Positions 676 through 39,863 of a stretch of 39,863 bases of DNA are shown here, piece by piece. The stretch spans positions 1 to 39,863 of the IMG/VR virus record IMGVR_UViG_3300020045_002020. The stretch is one strand, 5' to 3'. The notes below the pieces were generated by a model. That model saw only the letters and a list, made by a program, of their open reading frames with translations. It was not told the origin of the DNA and ran no database searches. Made by a program: the position numbers and the translations under genes. How positions within the stretch are numbered: the first letter of the stretch is position 1; every line of letters begins with the position of its first letter. Origin of the DNA: a virus. Its lineage: Duplodnaviria > Caudoviricetes.

Positions 676-2730
676 ATGGCTCGTGAGACGAAAGCAGAGC
701 GCCACGTACGAGTACACGCCGATGCTATAAAGACATTTGATGAGATCCAAACTGCTCAACGTGATGTCAGACTTCAATGCTTGAAGGATCGCCGCTTCTA
801 CTCCATACCTGGTGCCATGTGGGAAGGTCCTATCGGTGAGCAGTTTGAGAACAAGCCTAAGATCGAGATCAACAAGATCCATCTTGCTGTCATTCGTATA
901 ATCAATGAATACCGCAATAACCGCATCACTGTTGACTATATTAGCAAAGAGGGTGTGGAAGATGATGACTTAGCTGATGTATGTGATGGCTTGTACCGCG
1001 CCACTGAGCAGGACTCCGACGCAGAAGAAGCGTATGACAATGCCTTTGAGGAAGCAGTTGCTGGTGGCTTCGGTGCCTGGCGTCTACGCACTGAGTATGA
1101 AGATGAAGAAGACCCAGATGATGATAAACAGAAGATAATCATTGAGCCCATTTTCGATGCTGATAGCTCCGTGTTCTTCGATCTACAAGCCAAAAAGCAG
1201 AGCAAGGCAGATGCCACCAAGTGCTTCGTGCTAACCAGCATGACACGTGATGTTTATGAAGCTGAATGGGGTCACAGTGCTTCCTCATTGGAGAAGGTTA
1301 TACACCAACACGAGTTTGATTGGCTCACCCCCGACGTAGTGTTTATTGCCGAGTACTACGTAGTTGAGGAGAAGAGAGAGACCATCTACATCTGGGAGAA
1401 GCTAAACGGTGAAGAAGTCCGCCTCACAAAAGAAGAGCTCGAAGATCAGGAAGAAGAGCTTGAAGCAACGGGAGCGCAGGAAGTCCGCACTAAAACGCTT
1501 AAGAAAAAGAAGGTTCACAAGTACATCATTGACGGAGCTCGGATCCTCGAAGATTGCGGCTACATTGCTGGCAATTGTATTCCTATCATCCCAGTATATG
1601 GCAAGCGTTGGTATGTTGATAACGTAGAGCGGTGCATGGGTCATGTTAGGTTGAGCAAAGATCCTTCCATGGTCAAGAACATGCAAATCAGTAAGCTTGC
1701 TGAGATTGCAGCTTTAAGCACAGTGTCCAAGCCTATACTTTCTCCTGAGCAAGTTGCTGGGCACAGGTCAATGTGGGAAGAAGACAACATCAAGAACTTT
1801 CCGTTCCTTCTCATCAACCCGATTAAAGATCTCAACGGTCAAGAGATGTTGTCTCCACCAGTAGCGTACACTAAGCCACCTGAGATACCTCCTGCCATGG
1901 GAGCTCTGCTTCAAGTGACGGAGGACGATCTTCAAGACATCCTTGGCAACCAACAGAACGGTGAATCAGTCGATGGTAATGCATCTACTGATACCATGAT
2001 GTTCGTACAAAATCGCTTGGACATGCAAACCTATATCTACATGTCTAACATGGCTAAAGCTATTAAGCGTTGCGGCCACGTCTGGTTGAGTATAGCTCGC
2101 GACGTCTACGTAGAAGAAGGTCGAATCATGAAGTCAATAGGTTCTCAAGGAGAACTTAACAAGGTCGAACTGCTCCGCCCTGTTACTAATAAGGATGGAA
2201 GTGTTGGTAGACAGAATGATATGTCCAATGCTAAGTTCGATCTAACTGTTGAAGTTGGCCCATCTAGTTCCACGAAGCGGGCGGCAACGGTCAGAGCTCT
2301 GACTAACATGGCGGCCTCGACCGACGACCCTGAGACTAAGCAGGTGCTTGGTGCCATGGCTATGATGAACATGGAAGGCGAGGGTATATCCGACGTTCGC
2401 AGGTATTTCCGTGATAAACTTATCAAGATGGGAGTAGTTGAACCAACCGAGCAAGAAGCTCAGGAGCTCGCTGAAGAACAGAAGAATACACCACCATCGC
2501 CCCAAGATCAATACTTTGAAGCATCAGCAAGTGCAGAGCGTGCTCGCGGTGAGAAAGCCCAGGCTGATACATTGAAGAGCCAAGCTCAGACTGACCAGAT
2601 CAGAGTTGATACAGCAGCTACCACCCAAGAGATCGATGCTAAACAACAGGCACAAGCCCTTGAGATCATCGATCGCTTAGGGCCAAGAGTTACACCAACG
2701 GGCATCCCAGGACCGGGTGGCCAGGAGTAG
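676..2730 (+). CDS. P22-like portal protein
   Basis: 684 aa after TerL; P22 gp1-like motifs (INKI...NR, AFEEAVAGGFGAWR, IPIIPVYG) and a C-terminal coiled coil. Confidence 0.92.
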   Translation: MARETKAERHVRVHADAIKTFDEIQTAQRDVRLQCLKDRRFYSIPGAMWEGPIGEQFENKPKIEINKIHLAVIRIINEYRNNRITVDYISKEGVEDDDLADVCDGLYRATEQDSDAEEAYDNAFEEAVAGGFGAWRLRTEYEDEEDPDDDKQKIIIEPIFDADSSVFFDLQAKKQSKADATKCFVLTSMTRDVYEAEWGHSASSLEKVIHQHEFDWLTPDVVFIAEYYVVEEKRETIYIWEKLNGEEVRLTKEELEDQEEELEATGAQEVRTKTLKKKKVHKYIIDGARILEDCGYIAGNCIPIIPVYGKRWYVDNVERCMGHVRLSKDPSMVKNMQISKLAEIAALSTVSKPILSPEQVAGHRSMWEEDNIKNFPFLLINPIKDLNGQEMLSPPVAYTKPPEIPPAMGALLQVTEDDLQDILGNQQNGESVDGNASTDTMMFVQNRLDMQTYIYMSNMAKAIKRCGHVWLSIARDVYVEEGRIMKSIGSQGELNKVELLRPVTNKDGSVGRQNDMSNAKFDLTVEVGPSSSTKRAATVRALTNMAASTDDPETKQVLGAMAMMNMEGEGISDVRRYFRDKLIKMGVVEPTEQEAQELAEEQKNTPPSPQDQYFEASASAERARGEKAQADTLKSQAQTDQIRVDTAATTQEIDAKQQAQALEIIDRLGPRVTPTGIPGPGGQE

Positions 2731-2769
2731 AATTTGATCGGTGTTGAGCCCAAATCCACCACCATCAAG

Positions 2770-2800
2770 CGGCATACCATCTAGCCGATTTAAATAGATG
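2770..2800 (+). promoter_or_regulatory. Putative H-type RNA pseudoknot upstream of the scaffold RBS
   Basis: CGGC(2770-73)/GCCG(2784-87) interleaved with CATCTA(2778-83)/TAGATG(2795-2800), with an A-rich loop. Confidence 0.4.
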
Positions 2801-2822
2801 AGTTAGTTTACGGAGATTGATA

Positions 2823-3716
2823 ATGGTTGTTAAAGCAAATAAGATACACGACGACGATGGTCTGACTATCGAGGGCGAAGTTGTTCACCTGAACGCGGAT
2901 GATGAACTCGGGAAGACTGCACCCAAGGAGAACGATGATGAACCCAAGTTAGAAGATGACGACGAGGTTGTGCTCACACTAGGTGACGAAGAGCCACCTA
3001 AAGATGACGAGGATGAGGAACATGCTTCTGCACCCGAATGGGTAAAGGAGTTACGTAAATCGCACCGCGAAATCCAAAGAGAGAACAGAGAGCTTAAGAA
3101 ACAAATTAAGACTATCAACACTCCTGAGACCAAACCAGAAGTGAAGATAAGTCCTAAGCCTAAGCTTGATGAGTTCGATTACGACACTGATGAATACGAC
3201 GCAGCGTTGGAGAAGTGGTACGATGATAAGGCTAAGGTCGCTGCCGCTAATAAAGCAGCGCAAGATGCCCAAAAGGCTGCAAGCCAAGCTTGGCAAGCTC
3301 GCCTAGATGGGTATTCTAAAGCTAAGTCTGAACTGAAGATTAAGGACTTTGATGATCTTGAGAACATTGTGTCTGATGCACTTGATAAGACACAACTTGG
3401 AATCATCGTACAAGGTGCTGACAACTCAGCTCAGGTGGTCGCAGTCCTCGGCAAGAATGAAGCCCGCTTGAAAGAGCTGGTTACCATTAAAGATCCCGTA
3501 AAGTTTGCCTTTGCGGTTGCAAAACTAGAAAAGGATATCAAAGTGACGAACCGTAAGAAAGTACCACCTACCCCTGAACGGGTAATATCAGGAGCTGGAC
3601 CTACTTCGGGTGCAGTGGACTCAACACTTGCTAAACTCAGAGAAGATGCTGCGCGCACCGGTGACTATACTAAAGTCACTGCGTACAAGCGGAAACTTCG
3701 AGATTTGAAACAGTAA
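2823..3716 (+). CDS. Capsid scaffolding protein
   Basis: Acidic N-terminus, coiled coil, basic C-terminal tail; lies between portal and coat; GGAG RBS at 2812 favours the ATG at 2823. Confidence 0.82.
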   Translation: MVVKANKIHDDDGLTIEGEVVHLNADDELGKTAPKENDDEPKLEDDDEVVLTLGDEEPPKDDEDEEHASAPEWVKELRKSHREIQRENRELKKQIKTINTPETKPEVKISPKPKLDEFDYDTDEYDAALEKWYDDKAKVAAANKAAQDAQKAASQAWQARLDGYSKAKSELKIKDFDDLENIVSDALDKTQLGIIVQGADNSAQVVAVLGKNEARLKELVTIKDPVKFAFAVAKLEKDIKVTNRKKVPPTPERVISGAGPTSGAVDSTLAKLREDAARTGDYTKVTAYKRKLRDLKQ

Positions 3717-3729
3717 TTAGGAGGCAATT

Positions 3730-4995
3730 ATGCCTAACGCATTTAGTAAAGAGGAACGCGTCGCGTTCGAGGATATTTTGGAAGGTTTCCACGATTACCT
3801 TGTTCTGTCGCGTAATGTGGCCAAGTATCAAACCGGTGATTCTGAGATGGAACGGTCTGGAGACGTCATCTGGCGCCCACAGCCTTACATCGCACAGTCT
3901 TTCGACGGTATGGATCAAACGGCTAACTTTAACCCAAGCGCCCAGTTGTCTGTGCCAGCGACTTTAGGCTTTAGCAAGTCTAGTCCTTGGATCATGGATG
4001 CCAAAGAGTTGCGTGATGCCCTTCAAGAGAAACGCCTTGGTGAAGCCGCTAAGCAGAAGCTTGCGTCTGACATCAACATCGCCATTATGGCCACTGCTGC
4101 CAATCAGGGAACCTTGGTTGTTAAGCGCACAGCTGCTGCAACTGGTTTTGATGATCTTGCCCAGTGTGATTCGATCATGAATGAGCAAGGTGTTGCAATG
4201 CATGAACGCTTTGCAGCTCTGAGTTCTCGTGATTACAACAACATGGCAAGTAACCTCGCAGGTCGTGGTACCATGCAGGGTAAACCTGTTACAGCCTACG
4301 AGAAAGCGTACGTCGGTGAAGTATCAGGCTTTTCAACTTACAAGCTTGATTACGCCAATCGATTGCCTGCGGCTGCGGGTGGTGGCGCTCTGACCATGAA
4401 CACCTTGGTTGCTGGTGCTAATTTCTACACTCCTGTCTCAACCCGTGTTGCATCAACTGGAGAGCGTAGCAATGTTGACAACCGCTACCAATCGGTAACT
4501 GTCTCCGCGACTACTAACGTAGTTGCTGGCGATTGCTTTACGGTTGCTGGTGTTAACGCTGTGCATCACATCACCAAGGCCGATACTGGTCAGCTGAAAA
4601 CCTTCCGAGTTATCTCGGTAGATTCCGGCACCACCATGACTATCAGTCCTCCGCTGATCTCGAACCAAGGCGGCACTGATGCTGAAGCCCAGTACCAGAA
4701 CGTTGAGGTCACTGGATCAGCGGCTGCGGCCATCGTGTTCTTAAACACTGTTGCGGCTAATATCAACCCATTCTGGCAGCGCGACGCTATGGAGATCCTC
4801 CCTGGCCGTTACGCAGTGCCTTCTGATGCTGGTGCAGCTATAATGCGCGGCACCACTGAGAATGGTATCGAACTGGTATGGCAGAAGCAGTATGATATTA
4901 ATACCATGAAGACTAAGTATCGTCTCGATACTTTGTTCGGTGTTGTCAACAAACAACCTGAGATGAGCGGCATCATGCTGTTCAGCCAAACCTAA
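3730..4995 (+). CDS. Major capsid protein (P22 coat-like)
   Basis: 421 aa, GGAGG RBS, P22 gp5-like sequence (AAKQKLASDIN, GDCFTVAGV, RLDTLFGV...PEMSG). Confidence 0.93.
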   Translation: MPNAFSKEERVAFEDILEGFHDYLVLSRNVAKYQTGDSEMERSGDVIWRPQPYIAQSFDGMDQTANFNPSAQLSVPATLGFSKSSPWIMDAKELRDALQEKRLGEAAKQKLASDINIAIMATAANQGTLVVKRTAAATGFDDLAQCDSIMNEQGVAMHERFAALSSRDYNNMASNLAGRGTMQGKPVTAYEKAYVGEVSGFSTYKLDYANRLPAAAGGGALTMNTLVAGANFYTPVSTRVASTGERSNVDNRYQSVTVSATTNVVAGDCFTVAGVNAVHHITKADTGQLKTFRVISVDSGTTMTISPPLISNQGGTDAEAQYQNVEVTGSAAAAIVFLNTVAANINPFWQRDAMEILPGRYAVPSDAGAAIMRGTTENGIELVWQKQYDINTMKTKYRLDTLFGVVNKQPEMSGIMLFSQT

Positions 4996-18979: not shown

Positions 18980-19471
18980 CTACCCAAGATCAGATTGGTT
19001 ATATTTTAACCAAGACCTACCTGAAGACTCCCACAAAGTCTTAGCATCACCATGTGGATACTCTTCCAAAAAAATGACGCGTTCACACCCAGTATTGAGA
19101 AGCAGCTTAGTACAGGTTACGCATGGACTGGCTGTCGCGTATGCCGTGTGGATCTCGTAGACATCCTTGCACTGGAGCAAAGCATTCTGCTCTGCGTGGA
19201 TCGCCTGGCAAGCATCCAGATTCGTACCACTAGGAGAGTTTGCACCTGGACAAGCATTGGGGTAGTAATGCTCCACATTGTTCATGGTATCTGCTTGAAG
19301 CTTACGCTCATTACAATGCGGAAGCCCAGCAGCGACTCCGTTGAACCCAGTGGCGATCACATGACCTCGCTTATTCAGTAGCGCACACCCAACTTTACGA
19401 CGGCAGCATGTAGACCGTTGAGCAGTCAGAAGTGCCAGGCCAATTGCCCATGCGTGTCTTGAAGGTCTCAT
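18980..19471 (-). CDS. dCMP deaminase
   Basis: RSTC.RRKVG, TGFNG, HAEQNAL and SPCVTC zinc motifs; ATGA overlap places the start at 19471. Confidence 0.92.
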   Translation of the reverse strand: MRPSRHAWAIGLALLTAQRSTCCRRKVGCALLNKRGHVIATGFNGVAAGLPHCNERKLQADTMNNVEHYYPNACPGANSPSGTNLDACQAIHAEQNALLQCKDVYEIHTAYATASPCVTCTKLLLNTGCERVIFLEEYPHGDAKTLWESSGRSWLKYNQSDLG

Positions 19472-20283
19472 ACTTTTTCCTCCCACCAACGAAGAATATT
19501 CCCTGGTTTAGTATACCGAAGTTCGCCTAACAGTGGTATTAGATATTGTGGATTCGTCCAGAGGTCGATTGCAGTTTGGACCTGGTTGAATACCTCACCT
19601 GCGTTATCCTGAACACAATAGATGGCACTCTTCCAATGCTCTTCATACAAGTGGCTAGATGCTGCTGTCAAGTACAAAGTCCCAGGTTTAATCTGTTTGG
19701 TAGCGTCATCTATTCCTATATTAAGAAGCCCACAGATTAAATGTGCGATCATACTGAAGTTGAAGACGTCATAAGGAATACCAAGCCATGCATCTGAAGA
19801 TCTCATAAACGTATGATTATTCAGGTGGCCATCTCTAATATTGAAGAACATGGCGATAGTGCATGGAACATCCTTCGTCTCAGGAGGGTTCTCTCTCCAG
19901 AAAGTCATGCCAGCTTGGCGGGTATCCTTATCTTGGTCGAGTTTGCTGACAACATACCGGATCTGGTCCATGAGCTTAGGTCCGTATGCGCCGAAGAAGG
20001 TTTCACCGTTATCAGAGAAGTCTGCAATTCTCTTGTTCCACGGAGCAATATCTTCTACACGATCACTACCGGACAGGATCCAATGAGCTTCAGCTGCCAT
20101 GAACTGATAACTAAGCTTGCGGTCTGGTACGTCAAGCACTGGAGTCCTCATGTTCACCTTGATCGTGTTCTGAGGAATCTCCCTCGTCAACTTACCGCGA
20201 GGAGAGACTAGAGCACCATCTGCTATGATCTCACAGATCATACTAAGCCACACTGTTGAGAACGACACAGGTACGTAGTTCAT
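19468..20283 (-). CDS. Thymidylate synthase-fold enzyme, probable dCMP (hydroxy)methyltransferase
   Basis: GAYG, DTRQA, catalytic PC, MRSSDAWLGIPYD, HLY; Asp at the E. coli ThyA Asn177-equivalent site. Confidence 0.85.
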   Translation of the reverse strand: MNYVPVSFSTVWLSMICEIIADGALVSPRGKLTREIPQNTIKVNMRTPVLDVPDRKLSYQFMAAEAHWILSGSDRVEDIAPWNKRIADFSDNGETFFGAYGPKLMDQIRYVVSKLDQDKDTRQAGMTFWRENPPETKDVPCTIAMFFNIRDGHLNNHTFMRSSDAWLGIPYDVFNFSMIAHLICGLLNIGIDDATKQIKPGTLYLTAASSHLYEEHWKSAIYCVQDNAGEVFNQVQTAIDLWTNPQYLIPLLGELRYTKPGNILRWWEEKV

Positions 20284-20651
20284 TATCTCCCCTCCGTAGA
20301 TGCGATGTAGAAGCCTGCATAGTTGATAATATCCAGAGCAGTGTCAGAGAGACCTTCGAAATTCTCTTTCTTGCCGTCGATCTGTTTTTGAACGAGTGAA
20401 TTGAACCGCTGAGATTTAGTATGGAGCATCTGAGCATAACTCACGGCGCCGAATGGAAAATAGTTAGAGCGGTCGACATCATGGGGATTCACGTCCTTAC
20501 CGTGGTTGTAGTCCTGGCTCTTCTTAATGCATAAAAGAGCCGCTTGCGCCAGAGCACCAGGATGCCCGCCACGATTGGCGAGCTCCTGAAGCAGTTCTTC
20601 ACTTGACGCTTCCAATATTACTTGGCTTCTGTTAGCTTCACTTAGGCTCAT
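20283..20651 (-). CDS. Nucleotide-modification-associated domain 1 (Nmad1/DUF1599)-like protein
   Basis: KKSQDY...K..R...E.LSDTALDIINY motif; start reassigned to 20651. Confidence 0.65.
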   Translation of the reverse strand: MSLSEANRSQVILEASSEELLQELANRGGHPGALAQAALLCIKKSQDYNHGKDVNPHDVDRSNYFPFGAVSYAQMLHTKSQRFNSLVQKQIDGKKENFEGLSDTALDIINYAGFYIASTEGR

Positions 20652-21030
20652 TGTCTTCACCTTCTGGTATACTTGGACTAGTTTCTGCAGACTTAACGGA
20701 TCCATCGGCAATCCTGCCATTATTTACCTCCCACTTCTTCCTCAGAGCATCTGTCAACTCCATGGGAGTCAATCCGTAAGCCAGTGCAGCGTTGGCCCAG
20801 AACTGAAGGATGTCAGTCATCTCAGTGGCAAGAGCGGCACGATTAACCTCTATCTTCTTGGTTTTCCAAGGCTTGAAGTTGATCTCCTGCATCGCTTCAG
20901 TTGTTTCCACGATGACATGAAGAAGGTTCTCTTTCACACCTTCCTCGCCGGCACCAGTAGGATTGCCCATACGCTTCTGCAACTCAAATTGAGTGGTGAG
21001 CAACTCGTTAAGATCTAAAAAGTCAAACAT
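20638..21030 (-). CDS. All-alpha NTP pyrophosphatase (dimeric dUTPase/dCTPase, MazG-like)
   Basis: ETTEAMQEINFKPWK, EMTDILQF, KWEVNNGR motifs. Confidence 0.8.
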   Translation of the reverse strand: MFDFLDLNELLTTQFELQKRMGNPTGAGEEGVKENLLHVIVETTEAMQEINFKPWKTKKIEVNRAALATEMTDILQFWANAALAYGLTPMELTDALRKKWEVNNGRIADGSVKSAETSPSIPEGEDNEPK

Positions 21031-21803
21031 TATTTCTTCCCCTTAAGAGGTTTGCGACACACCCAGAGATTATTGCGAGAGTGGTCTGGGTACAAAGGAC
21101 CAAAGATGTTGCTGATGGCATCGTTGTCAAAGTACTTATCAAGCTGAGACCTGACCAACTTGATGGCAGCACCGAGTTCTTTGTCGTCATCTGGCGCTAC
21201 CTTACCTATATATTTTATATCCATGAACGTGCCATAGCGCTTTTCAATTTCGAAACCTGCCTTCTCAGTGATCTTCTGAAGCTCAGGAACGGTATACTCA
21301 TGGATGTGGTTAGCCGCGTGGCGCTTCCCATCGTAGCATGGCGTAGACATCAACATCACACCACCAGGTTTCAAGGATTCGAATGCGGCCTTCAGTAACT
21401 TAGTGCCACTGTCTACCTTCATGTGCTCAATGACTTCATAATGAACGACAACATCAAACAGGCCATGCTCTTTGATCAACTTCTTGTAGTTATTGGTGAA
21501 GTCAAACTCTCCATAGAACTCCAACCGTTGACTGTTAGACGGTTTTAGTTTGTTCAGATCAACACCAACGTAGCGGTCGACGTGAGCCGAAGCACCACCT
21601 GTAAGGATCTTGCTCAGTGGTTTTTCTTCACCGCATCCAATTTCAAGTACTGAGTCTTTGGCGCTGATGAAACGACGGGCAAAGCTCCAGCGCCAGAAAT
21701 GGGCAGAATAATCTCTGTGAAGAGTCTTGCCATGACCTGACAGCTTCAACTGGGTTGTATCGAACTCTCGCTCGTCTCGTTTTACTTCTCTTGAAATTGG
21801 CAT
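21030..21803 (-). CDS. Class I SAM-dependent methyltransferase
   Basis: VLEIGCG, YVGVDL, FDVVVHYEVIEH, LKPGG...STP. Confidence 0.88.
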   Translation of the reverse strand: MPISREVKRDEREFDTTQLKLSGHGKTLHRDYSAHFWRWSFARRFISAKDSVLEIGCGEEKPLSKILTGGASAHVDRYVGVDLNKLKPSNSQRLEFYGEFDFTNNYKKLIKEHGLFDVVVHYEVIEHMKVDSGTKLLKAAFESLKPGGVMLMSTPCYDGKRHAANHIHEYTVPELQKITEKAGFEIEKRYGTFMDIKYIGKVAPDDDKELGAAIKLVRSQLDKYFDNDAISNIFGPLYPDHSRNNLWVCRKPLKGKK

Positions 21804-23265: not shown

Positions 23266-23306
23266 TCGGAACTCCTTTAAGTCGTCCTGTTATTGCGACG
23301 TTACGA
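23229..23306 (+). mobile_element. attC-like recombination site A1
   Basis: GCATAAC...GCAATcAGCA / TGTTATTGC...GTTACGA; arms pair with one extra C. Confidence 0.75.
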
Positions 23307-23510
23307 GTCGCCATCAAACCACACGGTTGTCATAGAGGCAGGCGGGATAAATACACCAACACCATGAATCACCTCGCACCTGTAATCCGATTTAAAGTCA
23401 CAACTCAAGAATTTCACGCCATTCCATACCCAAGGCACTACGCCTAGAAAAATTACAACCACAACCACAATCATCAACTCAACCAATGTAAAACCTTTTT
23501 GCTTCGTCAT
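23301..23510 (-). CDS. Small prepilin-type (class III signal peptide) protein in a cassette
   Basis: MTKQKG/FTLVELMIVVVVV; GAGG RBS; stop codon inside the attC core. Confidence 0.8.
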   Translation of the reverse strand: MTKQKGFTLVELMIVVVVVIFLGVVPWVWNGVKFLSCDFKSDYRCEVIHGVGVFIPPASMTTVWFDGDS

Positions 23511-24019: not shown

Positions 24020-24547
24020 CTAGTCCTCAAGCACATGAAGAACATTGGGGTCTTGCCGCGCTAGATCAAAGGCCGGAGGGAGTTGACCCTTACGACGTAG
24101 CTCGCAGCGATACCAAGCTGGGTAGCTCTTCTTCTCAGGTCCGAAACGTTCCTCTCCATACTCAGCTTGAAGAGCTGCGAAGATGGTAGGATTGTCTGCG
24201 CCCTCTAAGATCATATCACGACATAGACTGGAGATGGTGACACGCGGAGCTTTCTTAGCAGGCTTCTTCTCAGCTTTAGGTTTCTTCTCAGCTTTAGGCT
24301 TCTTCTCAGTTTTAGGCTTCTTCTCAGCTTTAGGCTTCTTCTCAGTTTTAGGCTTCTTCTCAACTTTAGGCTTCTTAAGATCAAGAAGATAATTCTCTGC
24401 CATTGCAATGTTACATGCGAATCTCCCATCTCCCATCTTATCGATGAAGAGACCGTAATCGCGTGAATTAATGCCCATATTACGAAGCAGCGCAGTGGCG
24501 GAGTCACGACGGGCGTAGAATTTAGTAGCATCATCTTGTTTAGTCAT
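24020..24547 (-). CDS. Basic protein with KKPK(A/T/V)E repeats, putative DNA-binding
   Basis: First gene after a strong promoter; histone H1-like linker. Confidence 0.8.
   Translation of the reverse strand: MTKQDDATKFYARRDSATALLRNMGINSRDYGLFIDKMGDGRFACNIAMAENYLLDLKKPKVEKKPKTEKKPKAEKKPKTEKKPKAEKKPKAEKKPAKKAPRVTISSLCRDMILEGADNPTIFAALQAEYGEERFGPEKKSYPAWYRCELRRKGQLPPAFDLARQDPNVLHVLED
24261..24376. repeat. 18-bp tandem repeat, six units plus a partial unit
   Basis: GGCTTCTTCTCAGCTTTA variants encoding KKPKxE. Confidence 0.9.
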
Positions 24548-29827: not shown

Positions 29828-30040
29828 TCAGTGACTGCATCTTCCTAACTCCCTACGTTCTCGGTCGGCACGTGCTTTGTTCAGGCGGCTGTGAATCCGC
29901 TTCATAAACTGCTGGCGTCTACGGTTGCTTCGTTCTTCGTCTAGCAACTTGTGACAGGTGGCTTCATCGGCATCTCGTATGAAGTCATTCAACTTGATCC
30001 AAGTTTCAAGGGCTGGGTGATTAACTTCTTTTTTAAACAT
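29828..30040 (-). CDS. Hypothetical protein
   Basis: GAGGT RBS before the ATG at 30040. Confidence 0.7.
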   Translation of the reverse strand: MFKKEVNHPALETWIKLNDFIRDADEATCHKLLDEERSNRRRQQFMKRIHSRLNKARADRERRELGRCSH

Positions 30041-30117
30041 ATTTACCTCGTATATTAGGCTGGTAATACTCGCGCCATTTAACACCTACCGTTGCGACTG
30101 GTGCACATAAATCTTAG

Positions 30118-30270
30118 TTAGGCATCATGTGATTGCCTTTCGTGATCCTCGATTGATTTGGCTATGTACTCGCCAAGCCCAGTTGCTGCAAACAATGCTT
30201 CTAGCAATTCTTGCTTCGCCATTCGCTGCGCTTCTTTCTGCAAGATTTGCCATTTTTCATCGTCGTTCAT
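30118..30270 (-). CDS. Cassette-borne hypothetical protein (50 aa)
   Basis: GGAGG RBS; stop codon inside the GTTAGGC core at 30117-30123. Confidence 0.65.
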   Translation of the reverse strand: MNDDEKWQILQKEAQRMAKQELLEALFAATGLGEYIAKSIEDHERQSHDA

Positions 30271-30282
30271 TTCATCCTCCGT

Positions 30283-30337
30283 GCCTAACATTTGCGTCAA
30301 CGCGGACGCTCCGCTTTGCTACGCGCCGGTGTTATGC
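30283..30337 (+). mobile_element. attC-like site B1 (right arm partly deleted)
   Basis: GCCTAACATTTGCGTCAACGCGGACGC...GCGCCGGT-GTTATGC; GCCTAAC is the exact complement of GTTAGGC at 30117. Confidence 0.72.
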
Positions 30338-30519
30338 CCCGTAGAGTCAGCTGCCACGGTACGGTACATCGGCATATAGTTGTCGCACTCGACGCCGCGT
30401 ACTGAAATCGTGTAATCGAACATTGCCACGCTTTGCCAGTCGCTTGCTTTTGCCTGCACTCGATAGCAGTGCCCTGCGTTCGGGCAAAGTGTCTGGGAAC
30501 ACATTGTAATGTCAGCCAT
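30319..30519 (-). CDS. Cassette-borne Cys-rich hypothetical protein
   Basis: MADITMC....CP....CYR; AAGGA RBS. Confidence 0.7.
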   Translation of the reverse strand: MADITMCSQTLCPNAGHCYRVQAKASDWQSVAMFDYTISVRGVECDNYMPMYRTVAADSTGHNTGA

Positions 30520-30534
30520 ATCAATCCTTCCGTT

Positions 30535-30590
30535 GCATAACTGTGCCTTCAACTCGGACGCCTTAGGCGTCGGTTAAGGCGGCGTTAGCC
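30535..30590 (+). mobile_element. attC-like site B2 (56 bp, canonical looking)
   Basis: GCATAAC TGT GCCTTcAACtCGgACGCC TTA GGCGTCGGTTAAGGC GGC GTTAGCC. Confidence 0.85.
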
Positions 30591-30904
30591 GTCACAAGTC
30601 GGTAGTCGTAGTCATCAACGTACCCTGTTTCGTAGTCATGGCTTTCGTTGCACACCACCACTTCGTAAATTCCGTCTTCGACCTCGCTTAAATTCAAGAT
30701 GCGCAGCAAAACCTCTTCCGCACCTATCGCGTTGGCGTCTTCGGAAAGGATGTTGAATCCTTCGCACTGGCGGCGCAAGAACGTCAGGCTTTTCTTCGTG
30801 TACAGCCCACGCTTGTCTGCCCATACCGTCGTCTTCACCCGCACCGTGCAACGGCTAACATTTACGCCAACCGGACCTTGCGCCATGAGCGTTTCGAGGT
30901 TCAT
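30563..30904 (-). CDS. Cassette-borne hypothetical protein
   Basis: GGAGG RBS and ATG in the loop of attC B3; stop codon in the loop of attC B2. Confidence 0.75.
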   Translation of the reverse strand: MNLETLMAQGPVGVNVSRCTVRVKTTVWADKRGLYTKKSLTFLRRQCEGFNILSEDANAIGAEEVLLRILNLSEVEDGIYEVVVCNESHDYETGYVDDYDYRLVTANAALTDA

Positions 30905-30949
30905 TGTTCCTCCTGTGCTGGCGCAAGGCCGGTTACGTTATCATTAGTA
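30853..30949 (+). mobile_element. attC-like site B3
   Basis: GGCTAAC...ACGCcAACCGGaCCTTGCGCCA / TGGCGCAAGGCCGGTTACGT...ATTAGTA; two extra bases (C, A); right core degenerate (ATT for GTT). Confidence 0.8.
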
Positions 30950-31780
30950 CTTACGGCCCTTACGATCCGGGGTTTTCTTCGCTGCTGGTTTATTGGCGGC
31001 GCGACTCTTCTTCGGAGCAGGTTCTTCCTCACCTAACTGATATGGGAAGTCGATAGTGCTCTGAGCTTCAGCGCGGCGATCCATGATGGCAGCCATGATC
31101 TCATCAGGCACCTTCTGAATCGGTTCAAATGTTACCTTGAACTGAGTCTTGGCATCCGGCACTACAGATACGCGCGTGATGATACCAAACGGAGGACGCT
31201 TGAGAGCACCAGCAACCTGCTTGACAAAGTTCGCGTAACCCTTAACAGAGGTCACAGGAAGTTTCATGAAACCCATAGTGGTAGATGAGTAGTGATCAAG
31301 CTCTCCGAAGAGTTCAAGATTACCATTACGGTCGAAGTTACCGGCAGGAATCATGGCGAGGCGGCGGGTGTTGCGACAAGCCTTACCCTTACCAGTATTG
31401 GCAGAACCCCACTCGTTATTCTCACAGTTCTTGCACAGGTCTTCAATCTGATTCTGACCGACTTCGCGCACAATGATATGAGGTTCAAGATCTGCTTCTT
31501 CAGAAGCGAGCGCGAAACACGTAGGACTTTGAGGTACGTCTGGGTCATAACGACCTTCATAGAAGACATTCTCAAAGATCGTATCTAAGATGATGACCGC
31601 CATCTCGTTGTTCGGTACGGGTGAATCCTGCCAGCTGAGCACTCCGCCCTTAACGGAGAAGAACTGACCTCCTCCAGTAGAGGATTCAGCTACAGCCGCT
31701 TGTTCAGCTGCTTTTGCTAGTTCTTCATCCCAAGTTGCAACTGCTTTAGACTTGGAAGTTGTTGCTTTATTTGTAGCCAT
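30944..31780 (-). CDS. Putative ssDNA-binding/annealing protein
   Basis: CKNC..N.WGS...GKGKACRN.RRL motif; position in the replication module; GGAG RBS at the 31780 start. Confidence 0.6.
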   Translation of the reverse strand: MATNKATTSKSKAVATWDEELAKAAEQAAVAESSTGGGQFFSVKGGVLSWQDSPVPNNEMAVIILDTIFENVFYEGRYDPDVPQSPTCFALASEEADLEPHIIVREVGQNQIEDLCKNCENNEWGSANTGKGKACRNTRRLAMIPAGNFDRNGNLELFGELDHYSSTTMGFMKLPVTSVKGYANFVKQVAGALKRPPFGIITRVSVVPDAKTQFKVTFEPIQKVPDEIMAAIMDRRAEAQSTIDFPYQLGEEEPAPKKSRAANKPAAKKTPDRKGRKY

Positions 31781-32339: not shown

Positions 32340-32368
32340 ATTCTAACACGTCTAAACCTGGTTGTAAA
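32340..32368 (-). promoter_or_regulatory. Sigma70-like promoter
   Basis: TTTACA-N17-TAGAAT with extended -10 TG. Confidence 0.8.
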
Positions 32369-33856: not shown

Positions 33857-34131
33857 TTGTTTTGTCCTCTACCATTACACGCTTCGCATCGCATTTTTAC
33901 AGTATTGAACCCATGCCCTCGGGCCACAGATCCAGATCCGTTACAATTCCCGCACTTTTTAGGCTTCTTGGAATACTCCAAAGCTTCCATGTACGCAGTG
34001 CGGAGCTCGTTAAACTTATCAGCATCTCCTCCCTTATCAGGATGGTTAAGATTAGCTAGTTCTCTCCAACGAATCTTCACCTCCTCAGGAGATGCCGTGG
34101 GCAGCAAGCCCAACAAGGTGAACGCCTTCAT
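33853..34131 (-). CDS. Mini J-domain protein with DnaJ-type zinc finger
   Basis: HPDKGG motif; CGNCNGSG and CEACNGRG. Confidence 0.85.
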   Translation of the reverse strand: MKAFTLLGLLPTASPEEVKIRWRELANLNHPDKGGDADKFNELRTAYMEALEYSKKPKKCGNCNGSGSVARGHGFNTVKMRCEACNGRGQNK

Positions 34132-34811
34132 CCAAGCACCTCCTTCAGTGAAGGGTAGTGTTCAAGCAGAAGATCTCGGCAATCTTCAGCAATTTCGCGA
34201 TGCTCTTTCTGAGTACCGCTACCCGTACGCAACTGAATGTAGTGAATCCAACTACGAACCGTGCCGCTCATATACAGACGAGACTCGGTCAAGCCTTCAG
34301 GAAGGACAGATCGAGCAACCTCCTTGGCGATACCCGCGTTCAAGGCTTGGTTGTACTGGTCGTGAGCATAGGTAGCCACTGACTGTTGAGCAGACGACCA
34401 CCAAAGAGTTAGTTCGTCATCATCTATCTCAATACTACTTTGCCTGTTCTTTACATCTTGGAGTCGTGCTTCACGAATCACCGGAGCCGCTTGCACCTCA
34501 GCATACCGCTGGCTGAACTCTTGGAAGCTGAACGAGCGGTGGCGTAGGATTTGGCGGGCAATATCACGAGTCGTTACGATCTCGATCACAGCATGAGCCA
34601 TCTCGAACGGAGACCAGTGTTGATTCTCCACCATGTACTCAAGCAGCTTATCAGACGTGCCGTGGTTCAGCTGATTTCTCGGATTAGAGACTCGTGCACA
34701 GTAAGCAATGAGTGCTTGAGCTGGGTTCCAGACATCTCCGCCTTCAGGACCATCAACAACGCCGACACCTAGCAACGGTTGTGTCAATGCAATTAAACGG
34801 ACAGCCATCAT
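34128..34811 (-). CDS. thyX: FAD-dependent thymidylate synthase
   Basis: HWSPFE, RQILRHRSFSFQEFSQRY, EVARSVLP, TQKEHR. Confidence 0.95.
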   Translation of the reverse strand: MMAVRLIALTQPLLGVGVVDGPEGGDVWNPAQALIAYCARVSNPRNQLNHGTSDKLLEYMVENQHWSPFEMAHAVIEIVTTRDIARQILRHRSFSFQEFSQRYAEVQAAPVIREARLQDVKNRQSSIEIDDDELTLWWSSAQQSVATYAHDQYNQALNAGIAKEVARSVLPEGLTESRLYMSGTVRSWIHYIQLRTGSGTQKEHREIAEDCRDLLLEHYPSLKEVLG

Positions 34812-39069: not shown

Positions 39070-39863
39070 ACGCCATCAATTCGCTGTACCAACGAGATCT
39101 CGATCGGTGGTACCCACTTATTGACCACCCTGTTCAGTATGACTTAATCAATGACAATGTTCGCTTCAAGGTAGTTCCAGCAGGAAGACGATCCGGCAAG
39201 ACTGAACGCGCTAAGCGCCATGTAGCTAAGGTTGCTATGTCTACTAGTGCGCAGCCTTATTTCATCGCTGCTCCCACTCGGAACCAAGTCAAGCAGATCT
39301 ACTGGAGTGATATGAAGCGGTTGTGCTTCACCTCAGTGCTTGGTGATAAGGCGATCAGTGAATCAGATTTGATGATCAAACTACCCAATGGTAGTACCAT
39401 CACGCTCATCGGACTCGACCAACCACAACGCATCGAAGGTATTATCTGGGCAGGAGGTGTGATCGATGAAATCGCCGACATTAAAGAGAACGCTTGGGCA
39501 GAGAACATCTCGCCGGCTCTTGATACCTTTAATCCTCTTAATCCTGATTACCGTGCGTGGTGTTGGCTTATTGGTGTGCCAGATGGTCTCAACCATTATT
39601 ATGAGATGGCCGAGTACGCTAGGACCTCAAATGATCCTGACTGGAAGCTTTATACGTGGCATTCTTCTGACATACTTCCTCCTGACGTTATTGCTGCTGC
39701 TAAGCGCCGTATGTCCAACAGACAATACAAGCAAGAGTATGAAGCCAGCTTTGAAACAGCCGCAGGTAAGATATATGAAGACTACAGCATCGACAATCAA
39801 ACGAGCTCTACCATTAAGCCGCACGAACTACTCCATTGGTTCCACGATTTCAACTATACACCA
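39066..39863 (+). CDS. terL: Terminase large subunit, N-terminal ATPase part (continues at window start; about 449 aa in total)
   Basis: GTG start overlaps the TerS stop (GTGA); Walker A-like VPAGRRSGKT, APT motif and Walker B GVIDE; open to the window end; absent from the ORF track. Confidence 0.93.
   Translation, partial: MNAINSLYQRDLDRWYPLIDHPVQYDLINDNVRFKVVPAGRRSGKTERAKRHVAKVAMSTSAQPYFIAAPTRNQVKQIYWSDMKRLCFTSVLGDKAISESDLMIKLPNGSTITLIGLDQPQRIEGIIWAGGVIDEIADIKENAWAENISPALDTFNPLNPDYRAWCWLIGVPDGLNHYYEMAEYARTSNDPDWKLYTWHSSDILPPDVIAAAKRRMSNRQYKQEYEASFETAAGKIYEDYSIDNQTSSTIKPHELLHWFHDFNYTP
39743..39863. repeat. Terminal direct repeat, copy 2 (circular assembly overlap)
   Basis: Identical to 1-121. 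Confidence 0.95.

What the first reader, a model, noticed from the sequence alone, without database searches (positions are those of the whole stretch)
30117..30949. Integron-type gene-cassette array in an apparently lytic phage with no integrase (array B)
Seen: three consecutive units, each starting with a GTT core and ending in its exact complement: GTTAGGCA 30117 / TGCCTAAC 30282, GTTATGC 30331 / GCATAAC 30535, and GTTAGCCGT 30584 / ACGGCTAAC 30851. Each complement opens an imperfect hairpin with extra bases; site B3 has an extra C and A, which are extrahelical G and T on the bottom strand. The region also looks more GC-rich than its flanks by eye. Established: this end-to-end core complementarity and these extrahelical bases are hallmarks of IntI-mobilised attC cassettes. 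No tyrosine recombinase was recognised in the genome. Inference: the phage gains and shuffles accessory genes as cassettes using a host integron integrase in trans.
Basis: partly seen in the sequence, partly recalled or inferred. Interest (0 to 1): 0.9.

Follow-up and report, generated by a model that had tools for sequence, protein, structure and literature searches.

The report
Backward integron cassettes in integrase-less phage
A phage with no detectable recombinase of its own carries three small genes in integron-type cassettes that face the opposite way from bacterial ones, likely taken from a pool that phages trade using an integron enzyme supplied by another phage or the host; two of the three recombination sites are damaged, so the array is probably mostly fixed now.

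Summary
Three attC-type cassettes (30118-30943) sit directly behind a stop codon in an operon; none of 22 related loci has them. A model built only from bacterial integron attC sites scores B2 (25.9 bits) and B3 (20.5), but not B1. (1) All three genes lie on the attC bottom strand, opposite to bacterial cassettes, and c3 starts inside its own attC. (2) B1 has lost 9 nt and B3 has a mutated crossover base, so only B2 is canonical. (3) Many viral contigs, some clearly temperate phages, encode an IntI with a conserved attI-like site and the same reversed cassettes, so the enzyme need not be the host's. Mobility is supported: c2 recurs in another phage contig with homology ending at both cores, and c3 homologues carry 59 different tails after the junction codon. 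No recombination was tested. CALINs in lytic phages are published (Qi 2023); I found no paper on the reversed type. This scan noted that type before on other genomes.

The parts
30117..30118 (+). Left junction, predicted G|TT crossover; the c1 stop codon overlaps it on the - strand
   Evidence: sequence; junctions printed
30118..30331 (+). Cassette c1 (214 bp): core, gene on - strand, own attC B1
30118..30270 (-). ORF c1, 50 aa from ATG, no homologue found
30283..30337 (+). attC B1 (top strand +), damaged: 9 nt missing against the intact site seen in 8 of 8 viral loci (5 distinct contexts, 5 different genes)
   Evidence: model score 7-8 bits, not significant
30332..30584 (+). Cassette c2 (253 bp)
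30319..30519 (-). ORF c2, 66 aa, small Cys-rich phage protein; its stop lies inside B1
   Evidence: 53 viral loci with a relative
30535..30590 (+). attC B2, canonical R''-L''-loop-L'-R'; bottom strand is the - strand
   Evidence: 25.9 bits, E 3e-4; similar site next to a viral intI in L472, 85% over 60 nt
30585..30943 (+). Cassette c3 (359 bp)
30563..30904 (-). ORF c3, 113 aa; ribosome-binding site and ATG lie in the loop of B3, stop lies inside B2
   Evidence: 128 hits including itself; no Pfam or PHROG family
30853..30949 (+). attC B3, member of a widespread viral attC family; crossover triplet mutated (AAT for AAC on the bottom strand)
   Evidence: 20.5 bits, E 0.006; 38 of 43 distinct family sites have AAC
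30943..30944 (+). Right junction, directly behind the TAA stop of the upstream 278-aa gene
30944..31780 (-). Upstream native gene, 278 aa (PHROG families of unknown function; my working label 'ssb' is a guess from position, from no call)
29828..30040 (-). Downstream native 70-aa gene, 7-143 nt behind the 278-aa gene in 19 of 22 related loci
32340..32368 (-). Sigma-70-like promoter candidate (10 of 12 matches) that would drive the operon through the array
   Evidence: consensus match only; 2 found against 3.3 expected in shuffles; three similar copies upstream of - strand operons
30075..30117 (+). Left flank with weak, inconclusive likeness to the phage attI-like motif
   Evidence: 6th of 1,464 AAC positions, score 5.7 against 21 or more for 30 of 32 training sites; no nhmmer hit there

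Best explanation
The three units are attC-bounded cassettes whose genes lie on the attC bottom strand, and they were likely inserted behind a native stop codon by an integron integrase acting in trans, most likely one encoded by a temperate phage in the same host cell. Shown: attC anatomy and polarity, reversed genes, no recombinase in this genome, absence from relatives, junction-exact sharing of c2 and c3 with other sequences, and viral integrons of the same reversed design. Inferred: IntI cuts the folded bottom strand at AA|C and joins a circular cassette to a TAA|C target on the coding strand (a G|TT secondary site, as for attG), so each cassette lands after a stop codon, facing the same way as the operon. 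Each cassette brings its own hairpin upstream of the gene, with the ribosome-binding site and, for c3, the start codon; no Pc promoter is needed. Inferred: the 9-nt loss in B1 and the crossover mutation in B3 have since largely fixed the array, with B2 the only site predicted to be fully active.
For: Covariance model from 48 bacterial integron attC sites hits B2 and B3 on the - strand. Three cassettes, three sites, one polarity, no canonical site at the left end, and the c3 start inside B3, all fit bottom-strand recombination. 0 of 22 related loci with both flanking genes carry an attC or c1-c3; removing 826 nt leaves a 77-nt gap, against 7-143 nt in 19 of them. c2: 87% identity in L021, ending at both cores. 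c3: 55 of 119 homologues keep the B3-encoded N-terminus, and 70 of 105 end in the junction codon followed by 59 different tails. Nine homologous cassette pairs keep the upstream attC (0.64-0.86) and differ downstream (0.28-0.44). Orientation: 37 bottom, 1 top, 6 unclear of 44 viral cassettes; 9 top, 2 bottom, 13 unclear of 24 bacterial ones. Viral IntI: 80 loci; 50 of 50 tested pass the TIGR02249 cut-off; six catalytic residues and the IntI insertion in 70 of 70; 66 of 70 in two virus-only clades; genes 32 bottom, 3 top, 20 unclear of 55; three of four loci scanned have a second, ordinary phage integrase next to intI. B2- and B3-like sites occur in those arrays and in none of 23 bacterial integron loci.
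Against: No recombination was tested. No close relative with the exact empty site was found; the nearest are 52-75% identical in protein and their intergenic DNA does not align cleanly. c1-c3 were not found in the 80 intI-bearing loci, and only 3 of 105 cassette bodies were. In the one pair not selected through B3, c2 carries a different attC in L021 (identity 0.12), and 23 of 119 c3 homologues have another attC-like head, so gene and attC can be re-paired by a route I cannot name. 0 of 50 records (47 with B3-type sites) encode an IntI. A bacterial isolate contig mixes both cassette types, which favours host IntI as well. The cruder longest-ORF test is much weaker (46 opposite, 28 same of 76). 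The tree is the quick one, with 22 bacterial rows from one order. The host is unknown.
Confidence: 0.5

Rival explanations
1. Same cassettes and same chemistry, but the host's chromosomal IntI did the insertion.
For: 102 of 251 sampled genomes of the order of Sulfuriferula have an IntI. The sites score with a model from those integrons. In Sulfuriferula multivorans contig L227, reversed cassettes sit in one array with top-strand cassettes, one of them 100% identical to the first cassette next to the chromosomal intI. IntI1 recombined five of six phage attC sites in PMC9892861.
Against: The full B3-type site is in 52 of 78 viral loci but only 6 of 120 bacterial-genome loci, found with different patterns. 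c3 was not found in 401 genomes of that order (no positive control). Reversed genes would be silent from a host Pc (established integron logic).
Confidence: 0.3
2. The three-cassette block was assembled in another phage and came here in one piece by homologous or illegitimate recombination; no integrase ever acted on this genome.
For: Two of three sites are damaged. The left flank differs from relatives and faintly resembles the phage attI-like motif. No exact empty allele was found.
Against: Both ends fall on predicted crossover points, the right one directly behind the native stop codon, and the leftover gap is of normal length.
Confidence: 0.17
3. The hairpins are terminators or chance palindromes, with no link to integrons.
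For: B1 is not significant with the model; scores of B2 and B3 are lower than those of most other viral sites.
Against: Core complementarity at about 2e-5; no terminator-like site in the region; same site families joined to different genes in other phages; junction-exact sharing.
Confidence: 0.03

Closest known systems
CALINs in virulent phages (Qi et al. 2023, PMC9892861; read: main text parts 1-4 of 7, a term search, supplement part 1 of 2; figures not visible)
   Same: Two or more attC sites, no integrase, lytic phage; five of six sites recombined with IntI1.
   Different: Their typical example TJE1 has genes on the top strand. The text has no statement on genes opposite to attC polarity, although their MW202573 array is of the reversed type by my test. 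It describes no phage-specific IntI clade or attI.
Bacterial integrons: IntI, attI, Pc, attC cassettes (anatomy from Nivina et al. 2016, PMC5027507, passages; Cury et al., 10.1101/030866, passages)
   Same: R and L boxes, extrahelical G16, AAC/GTT cores, end-to-end core complementarity, bottom-strand polarity.
   Different: No intI, no clear attI, no Pc; genes on the bottom strand; start codon inside the attC loop; reading frames run through the sites. The published 'inverted integrase integron' turns intI round, not the genes.
Cassette insertion at attG sites and SALINs (Loot et al., 10.1101/2022.09.11.507474; read: part 1 of 6 and passages)
   Same: IntI inserts cassettes at bare GWT sites outside integrons; attC hairpins can later be lost by slippage, as in B1.
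   Different: Shown for bacterial chromosomes with normally oriented cassettes, not for phage DNA or reversed cassettes.

Membership tests
attC site | R''-spacer-L''-loop-L'-spacer-R' geometry with conserved AAC/GTT | tested here: inconclusive
   Met by B2; B3 has the geometry but a mutated triplet; B1 lacks most of L' and its spacer
attC site | Extrahelical bases on one arm (G16 plus one or two more) | tested here: met
   Read from the sequence for all three; positions compared with PMC5027507
attC site | Significant score with an attC covariance model | tested here: met
   B2 25.9 and B3 20.5 bits with my own model R1; B1 not. IntegronFinder and HattCI were not available
attC site | Recombined by IntI at AA|C of the bottom strand | not testable with these tools
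   needs a recombination assay
Integron gene cassette | Complementary cores at both ends | tested here: met
   8, 7 and 9 nt exact
Integron gene cassette | Moves as a unit with ends at the cores | tested here: met
   c2 in L021; c3 tails. No evidence for c1, which has no homologue
Integron gene cassette (bacterial type) | Gene on the attC top strand, ending before its own attC | tested here: not met
   All three genes are on the bottom strand, behind their own attC
CALIN | Cluster of at least two attC sites, no intI nearby | tested here: met
   B2 and B3 pass; no integrase in the genome
Complete integron | intI gene | tested here: not met
Complete integron | attI site next to the first cassette | tested here: inconclusive
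   weak likeness to the phage attI-like motif only

The most novel reading that the evidence does not exclude
Phages run an integron network of their own. Temperate phages carry a phage-specific IntI and attI, and a shared pool of reversed cassettes is built for phage operons: the attC supplies the ribosome-binding site and often the first codons, and TAA|C stop codons serve as landing sites. Phages without any integrase, like this one, draw on that pool during co-infection or infection of a lysogen, then fix useful genes by losing the hairpins. Much of the small-gene mosaicism of these phages would then be site-specific.
Probability: 0.5. Interest if true: 0.82.

Novelty: new variant of a known kind. 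Interest (0 to 1): 0.62.

Why it matters
How phages gain and swap small accessory genes is usually put down to homologous or illegitimate recombination. A site-specific, integron-based route with phage-adapted polarity would explain part of that mosaicism, link lytic phages, temperate phages and host integrons in one gene pool, and is directly testable with the standard attC assays. Shared attC heads on unrelated genes also bear on the open question of how cassettes are made. This locus itself is a small, partly decayed example with genes of unknown function.

Tried and rejected
Rfam: no match in the window. BLAST of the array against phage and plasmid records: none; B3 alone gave one 20-nt chance hit. 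Sequencing runs: none was listed, so no junction reads could be sought. c1: no relative. No significant Pfam or PHROG family for c1-c3. My geometric scorer was weak on the window: B2 scored 12 against up to 11 in six shuffles, so I rely on the covariance model. The longest-ORF orientation test was noisy and was replaced by a test that needs a ribosome-binding site. My first reading put the right crossover at 30937; the family spacing moved it to 30943|30944. An attI at the left flank is not shown (the training regex was written after I noticed the likeness). The careful tree did not finish. The left-arm pattern in bacterial genomes gave mostly chance hits, 114 of 120. Eight literature searches found no paper on reversed phage cassettes or a phage IntI clade; subscription journals, figures, the Dryad annotation file of Qi et al. 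and bioRxiv supplements were not visible and could hold it. PMC13323075 (passages) did not bear on it.

Full report
Setting. The window is a complete 39.9-kb phage record with direct terminal repeats. It has portal, head, DNA polymerase, helicase, primase and ligase genes and no tyrosine recombinase, serine recombinase or integron integrase match. A lytic lifestyle is inferred from that. The host is unknown.

Observation. The six cores are exact and in place. The three hairpins lead a genome-wide scan, and three consecutive complementary core pairs have a chance of about 2e-5. The insert is GC-rich, 52.5% against 46.8%; third-position GC is 0.64 and 0.68 for c2 and c3 but 0.48 for c1, against 0.48-0.54 for six native genes.

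Are they attC sites? I took 20 regions around chromosomal intI genes, extracted sites with a geometric finder, and built a covariance model from the bottom strands of 48 sites of 75 nt or less (49 found, one dropped as doubtful). It scores B2 at 25.9 bits and B3 at 20.5, both on the - strand; B1 reaches 7-8 bits. E-values of this model are rough. So the - strand is the bottom strand, and each cassette owns the hairpin to its right on the + strand.

State of the sites. B2 is canonical. The B1 type is intact in 8 of 8 viral loci, in front of five different genes; the window copy lacks 9 nt between two short repeats, removing most of L' and its spacer. B3 belongs to a family seen in 52 of 78 viral loci. 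By the family spacing its crossover is at 30943|30944, where the window has AAT and 38 of 43 distinct family sites have AAC. Two of three sites are therefore predicted to work poorly.

Reversed genes. All three ORFs are on the - strand, the attC bottom strand, in line with the flanking operon and a promoter candidate at 32340-32368. The c3 ribosome-binding site and start codon lie in the loop of B3; the same frame starts in the loop in nearly all family members examined. Among clean single cassettes, ORFs led by a ribosome-binding site were on the bottom strand in 37 and on the top in 1 of 44 viral cases, against 2 and 9 of 24 bacterial cases. The viral set was gathered through the B3 pattern, and a cruder test gave a weaker split.

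Insertion. Of 26 related loci, 22 hold both flanking genes (17 distinct gaps). None has an attC or c1-c3; 19 have gaps of 7-143 nt and three copies of one sequence have an unrelated 1,329-nt insert. Removing 30118-30943 leaves 77 nt and a GTT on the + strand, which fits the GWT target of attG insertion. No exact empty allele was found.

Mobility. c2 recurs in L021 at 87% identity, and the alignment ends at both cores; there it has another attC. L022 has a c2 homologue with its terminal AAC but no hairpin. For c3, 55 of 119 homologues keep the B3-encoded N-terminus and 23 have another attC-like head; 70 of the 105 with a scorable C-terminus end in the junction codon and continue with 59 different tails. 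Nine B3-selected cassette pairs keep the upstream attC and differ downstream. This is what bottom-strand recombination predicts; the re-paired cases are unexplained.

Which integrase? None of 50 viral records tested, 47 of them with B3-type sites, encodes an IntI (0 of 13 near-complete ones). All 50 tested pass the integron-integrase cut-off, and 70 of 70 distinct proteins keep the catalytic residues and the IntI insertion. 66 of 70 fall in two virus-only clades in a quick tree with 22 bacterial rows. 141 of 147 attC hits have their bottom strand on the intI strand, genes are on the bottom strand in 32, on the top in 3 and unclear in 20 of 55 cassettes, and a conserved attI-like motif precedes intI in about 30. 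Three of four loci scanned have a second, ordinary integrase next to intI, one with lysis genes. A B2-type site is in L472 and B3-like sites in L491, L508 and L515, none in 23 bacterial integron loci. c1-c3 themselves were not found there. On the host side, 102 of 251 genomes have IntI, and contig L227 of Sulfuriferula multivorans mixes reversed and normal cassettes, one identical to the first cassette of its chromosomal integron. Both sources are open; I favour the phage one moderately.

Comparison with print. Qi et al. 2023 report 17 CALINs in phages and IntI1 activity on five of six sites. TJE1 is of normal polarity and MW202573 is reversed by my model, which their text does not mention. 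Eight searches found no description of reversed phage cassettes or a phage IntI clade. This scan's earlier notes report the same class on other genomes; they are leads, and the counts above are my own.

Verdict. Real; a CALIN by definition; a new variant of integron cassette by polarity; mostly fixed at this locus by inference. Interest 0.62.

Noticed in passing
   Followed up: partly
window 23301-23510 (-): A 69-aa ORF in array A with a type IV pilin N-terminal methylation motif (PF07963, E 5e-7); could be a pilin mimic.
   Followed up: no
L227 (Sulfuriferula multivorans NODE_54) and L272: One array holds reversed phage-type cassettes (including a methyltransferase-like gene) and normal cassettes; one is 100% identical to the first cassette next to the chromosomal intI.
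   Followed up: partly
L526 (MW202573) 2069-3738: A CALIN in the Qi et al. data set has five attC hits with the bottom strand on the gene strand, so it is of the reversed type.
   Followed up: yes
L445-L524, upstream of intI: Conserved attI-like motif and two virus-only IntI clades; intI often sits next to the ordinary phage integrase.
   Followed up: partly
L022 3001-3195: c2 homologue that keeps its terminal AAC but has no hairpin, directly before a polymerase-like gene; may be a domesticated cassette.
   Followed up: no
L004, L005, L304, behind the 278-aa gene: A different 1,329-nt insert of three small genes separated by other hairpins at the same intergenic spot, with no attC by my finder.
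   Followed up: no
window 19468-21803 and 34128-34811 (-): Two thymidylate-synthase-like genes plus a hydrolase, a nucleotide pyrophosphohydrolase and a methyltransferase; may make a modified base.
   Followed up: no
window 24621, 32368, 35961 (-): Three copies of a TTTACA-17-TAnnAT promoter-like repeat upstream of - strand operons.
   Followed up: partly
window 24020-24547 (-): 175-aa ORF with a Lys/Pro/Glu-rich 18-nt tandem repeat.
   Followed up: no
window ends (39299-39863 and 1-673): No large terminase was recognised among 52 ORFs scanned; it may span the join of the record.
   Followed up: no
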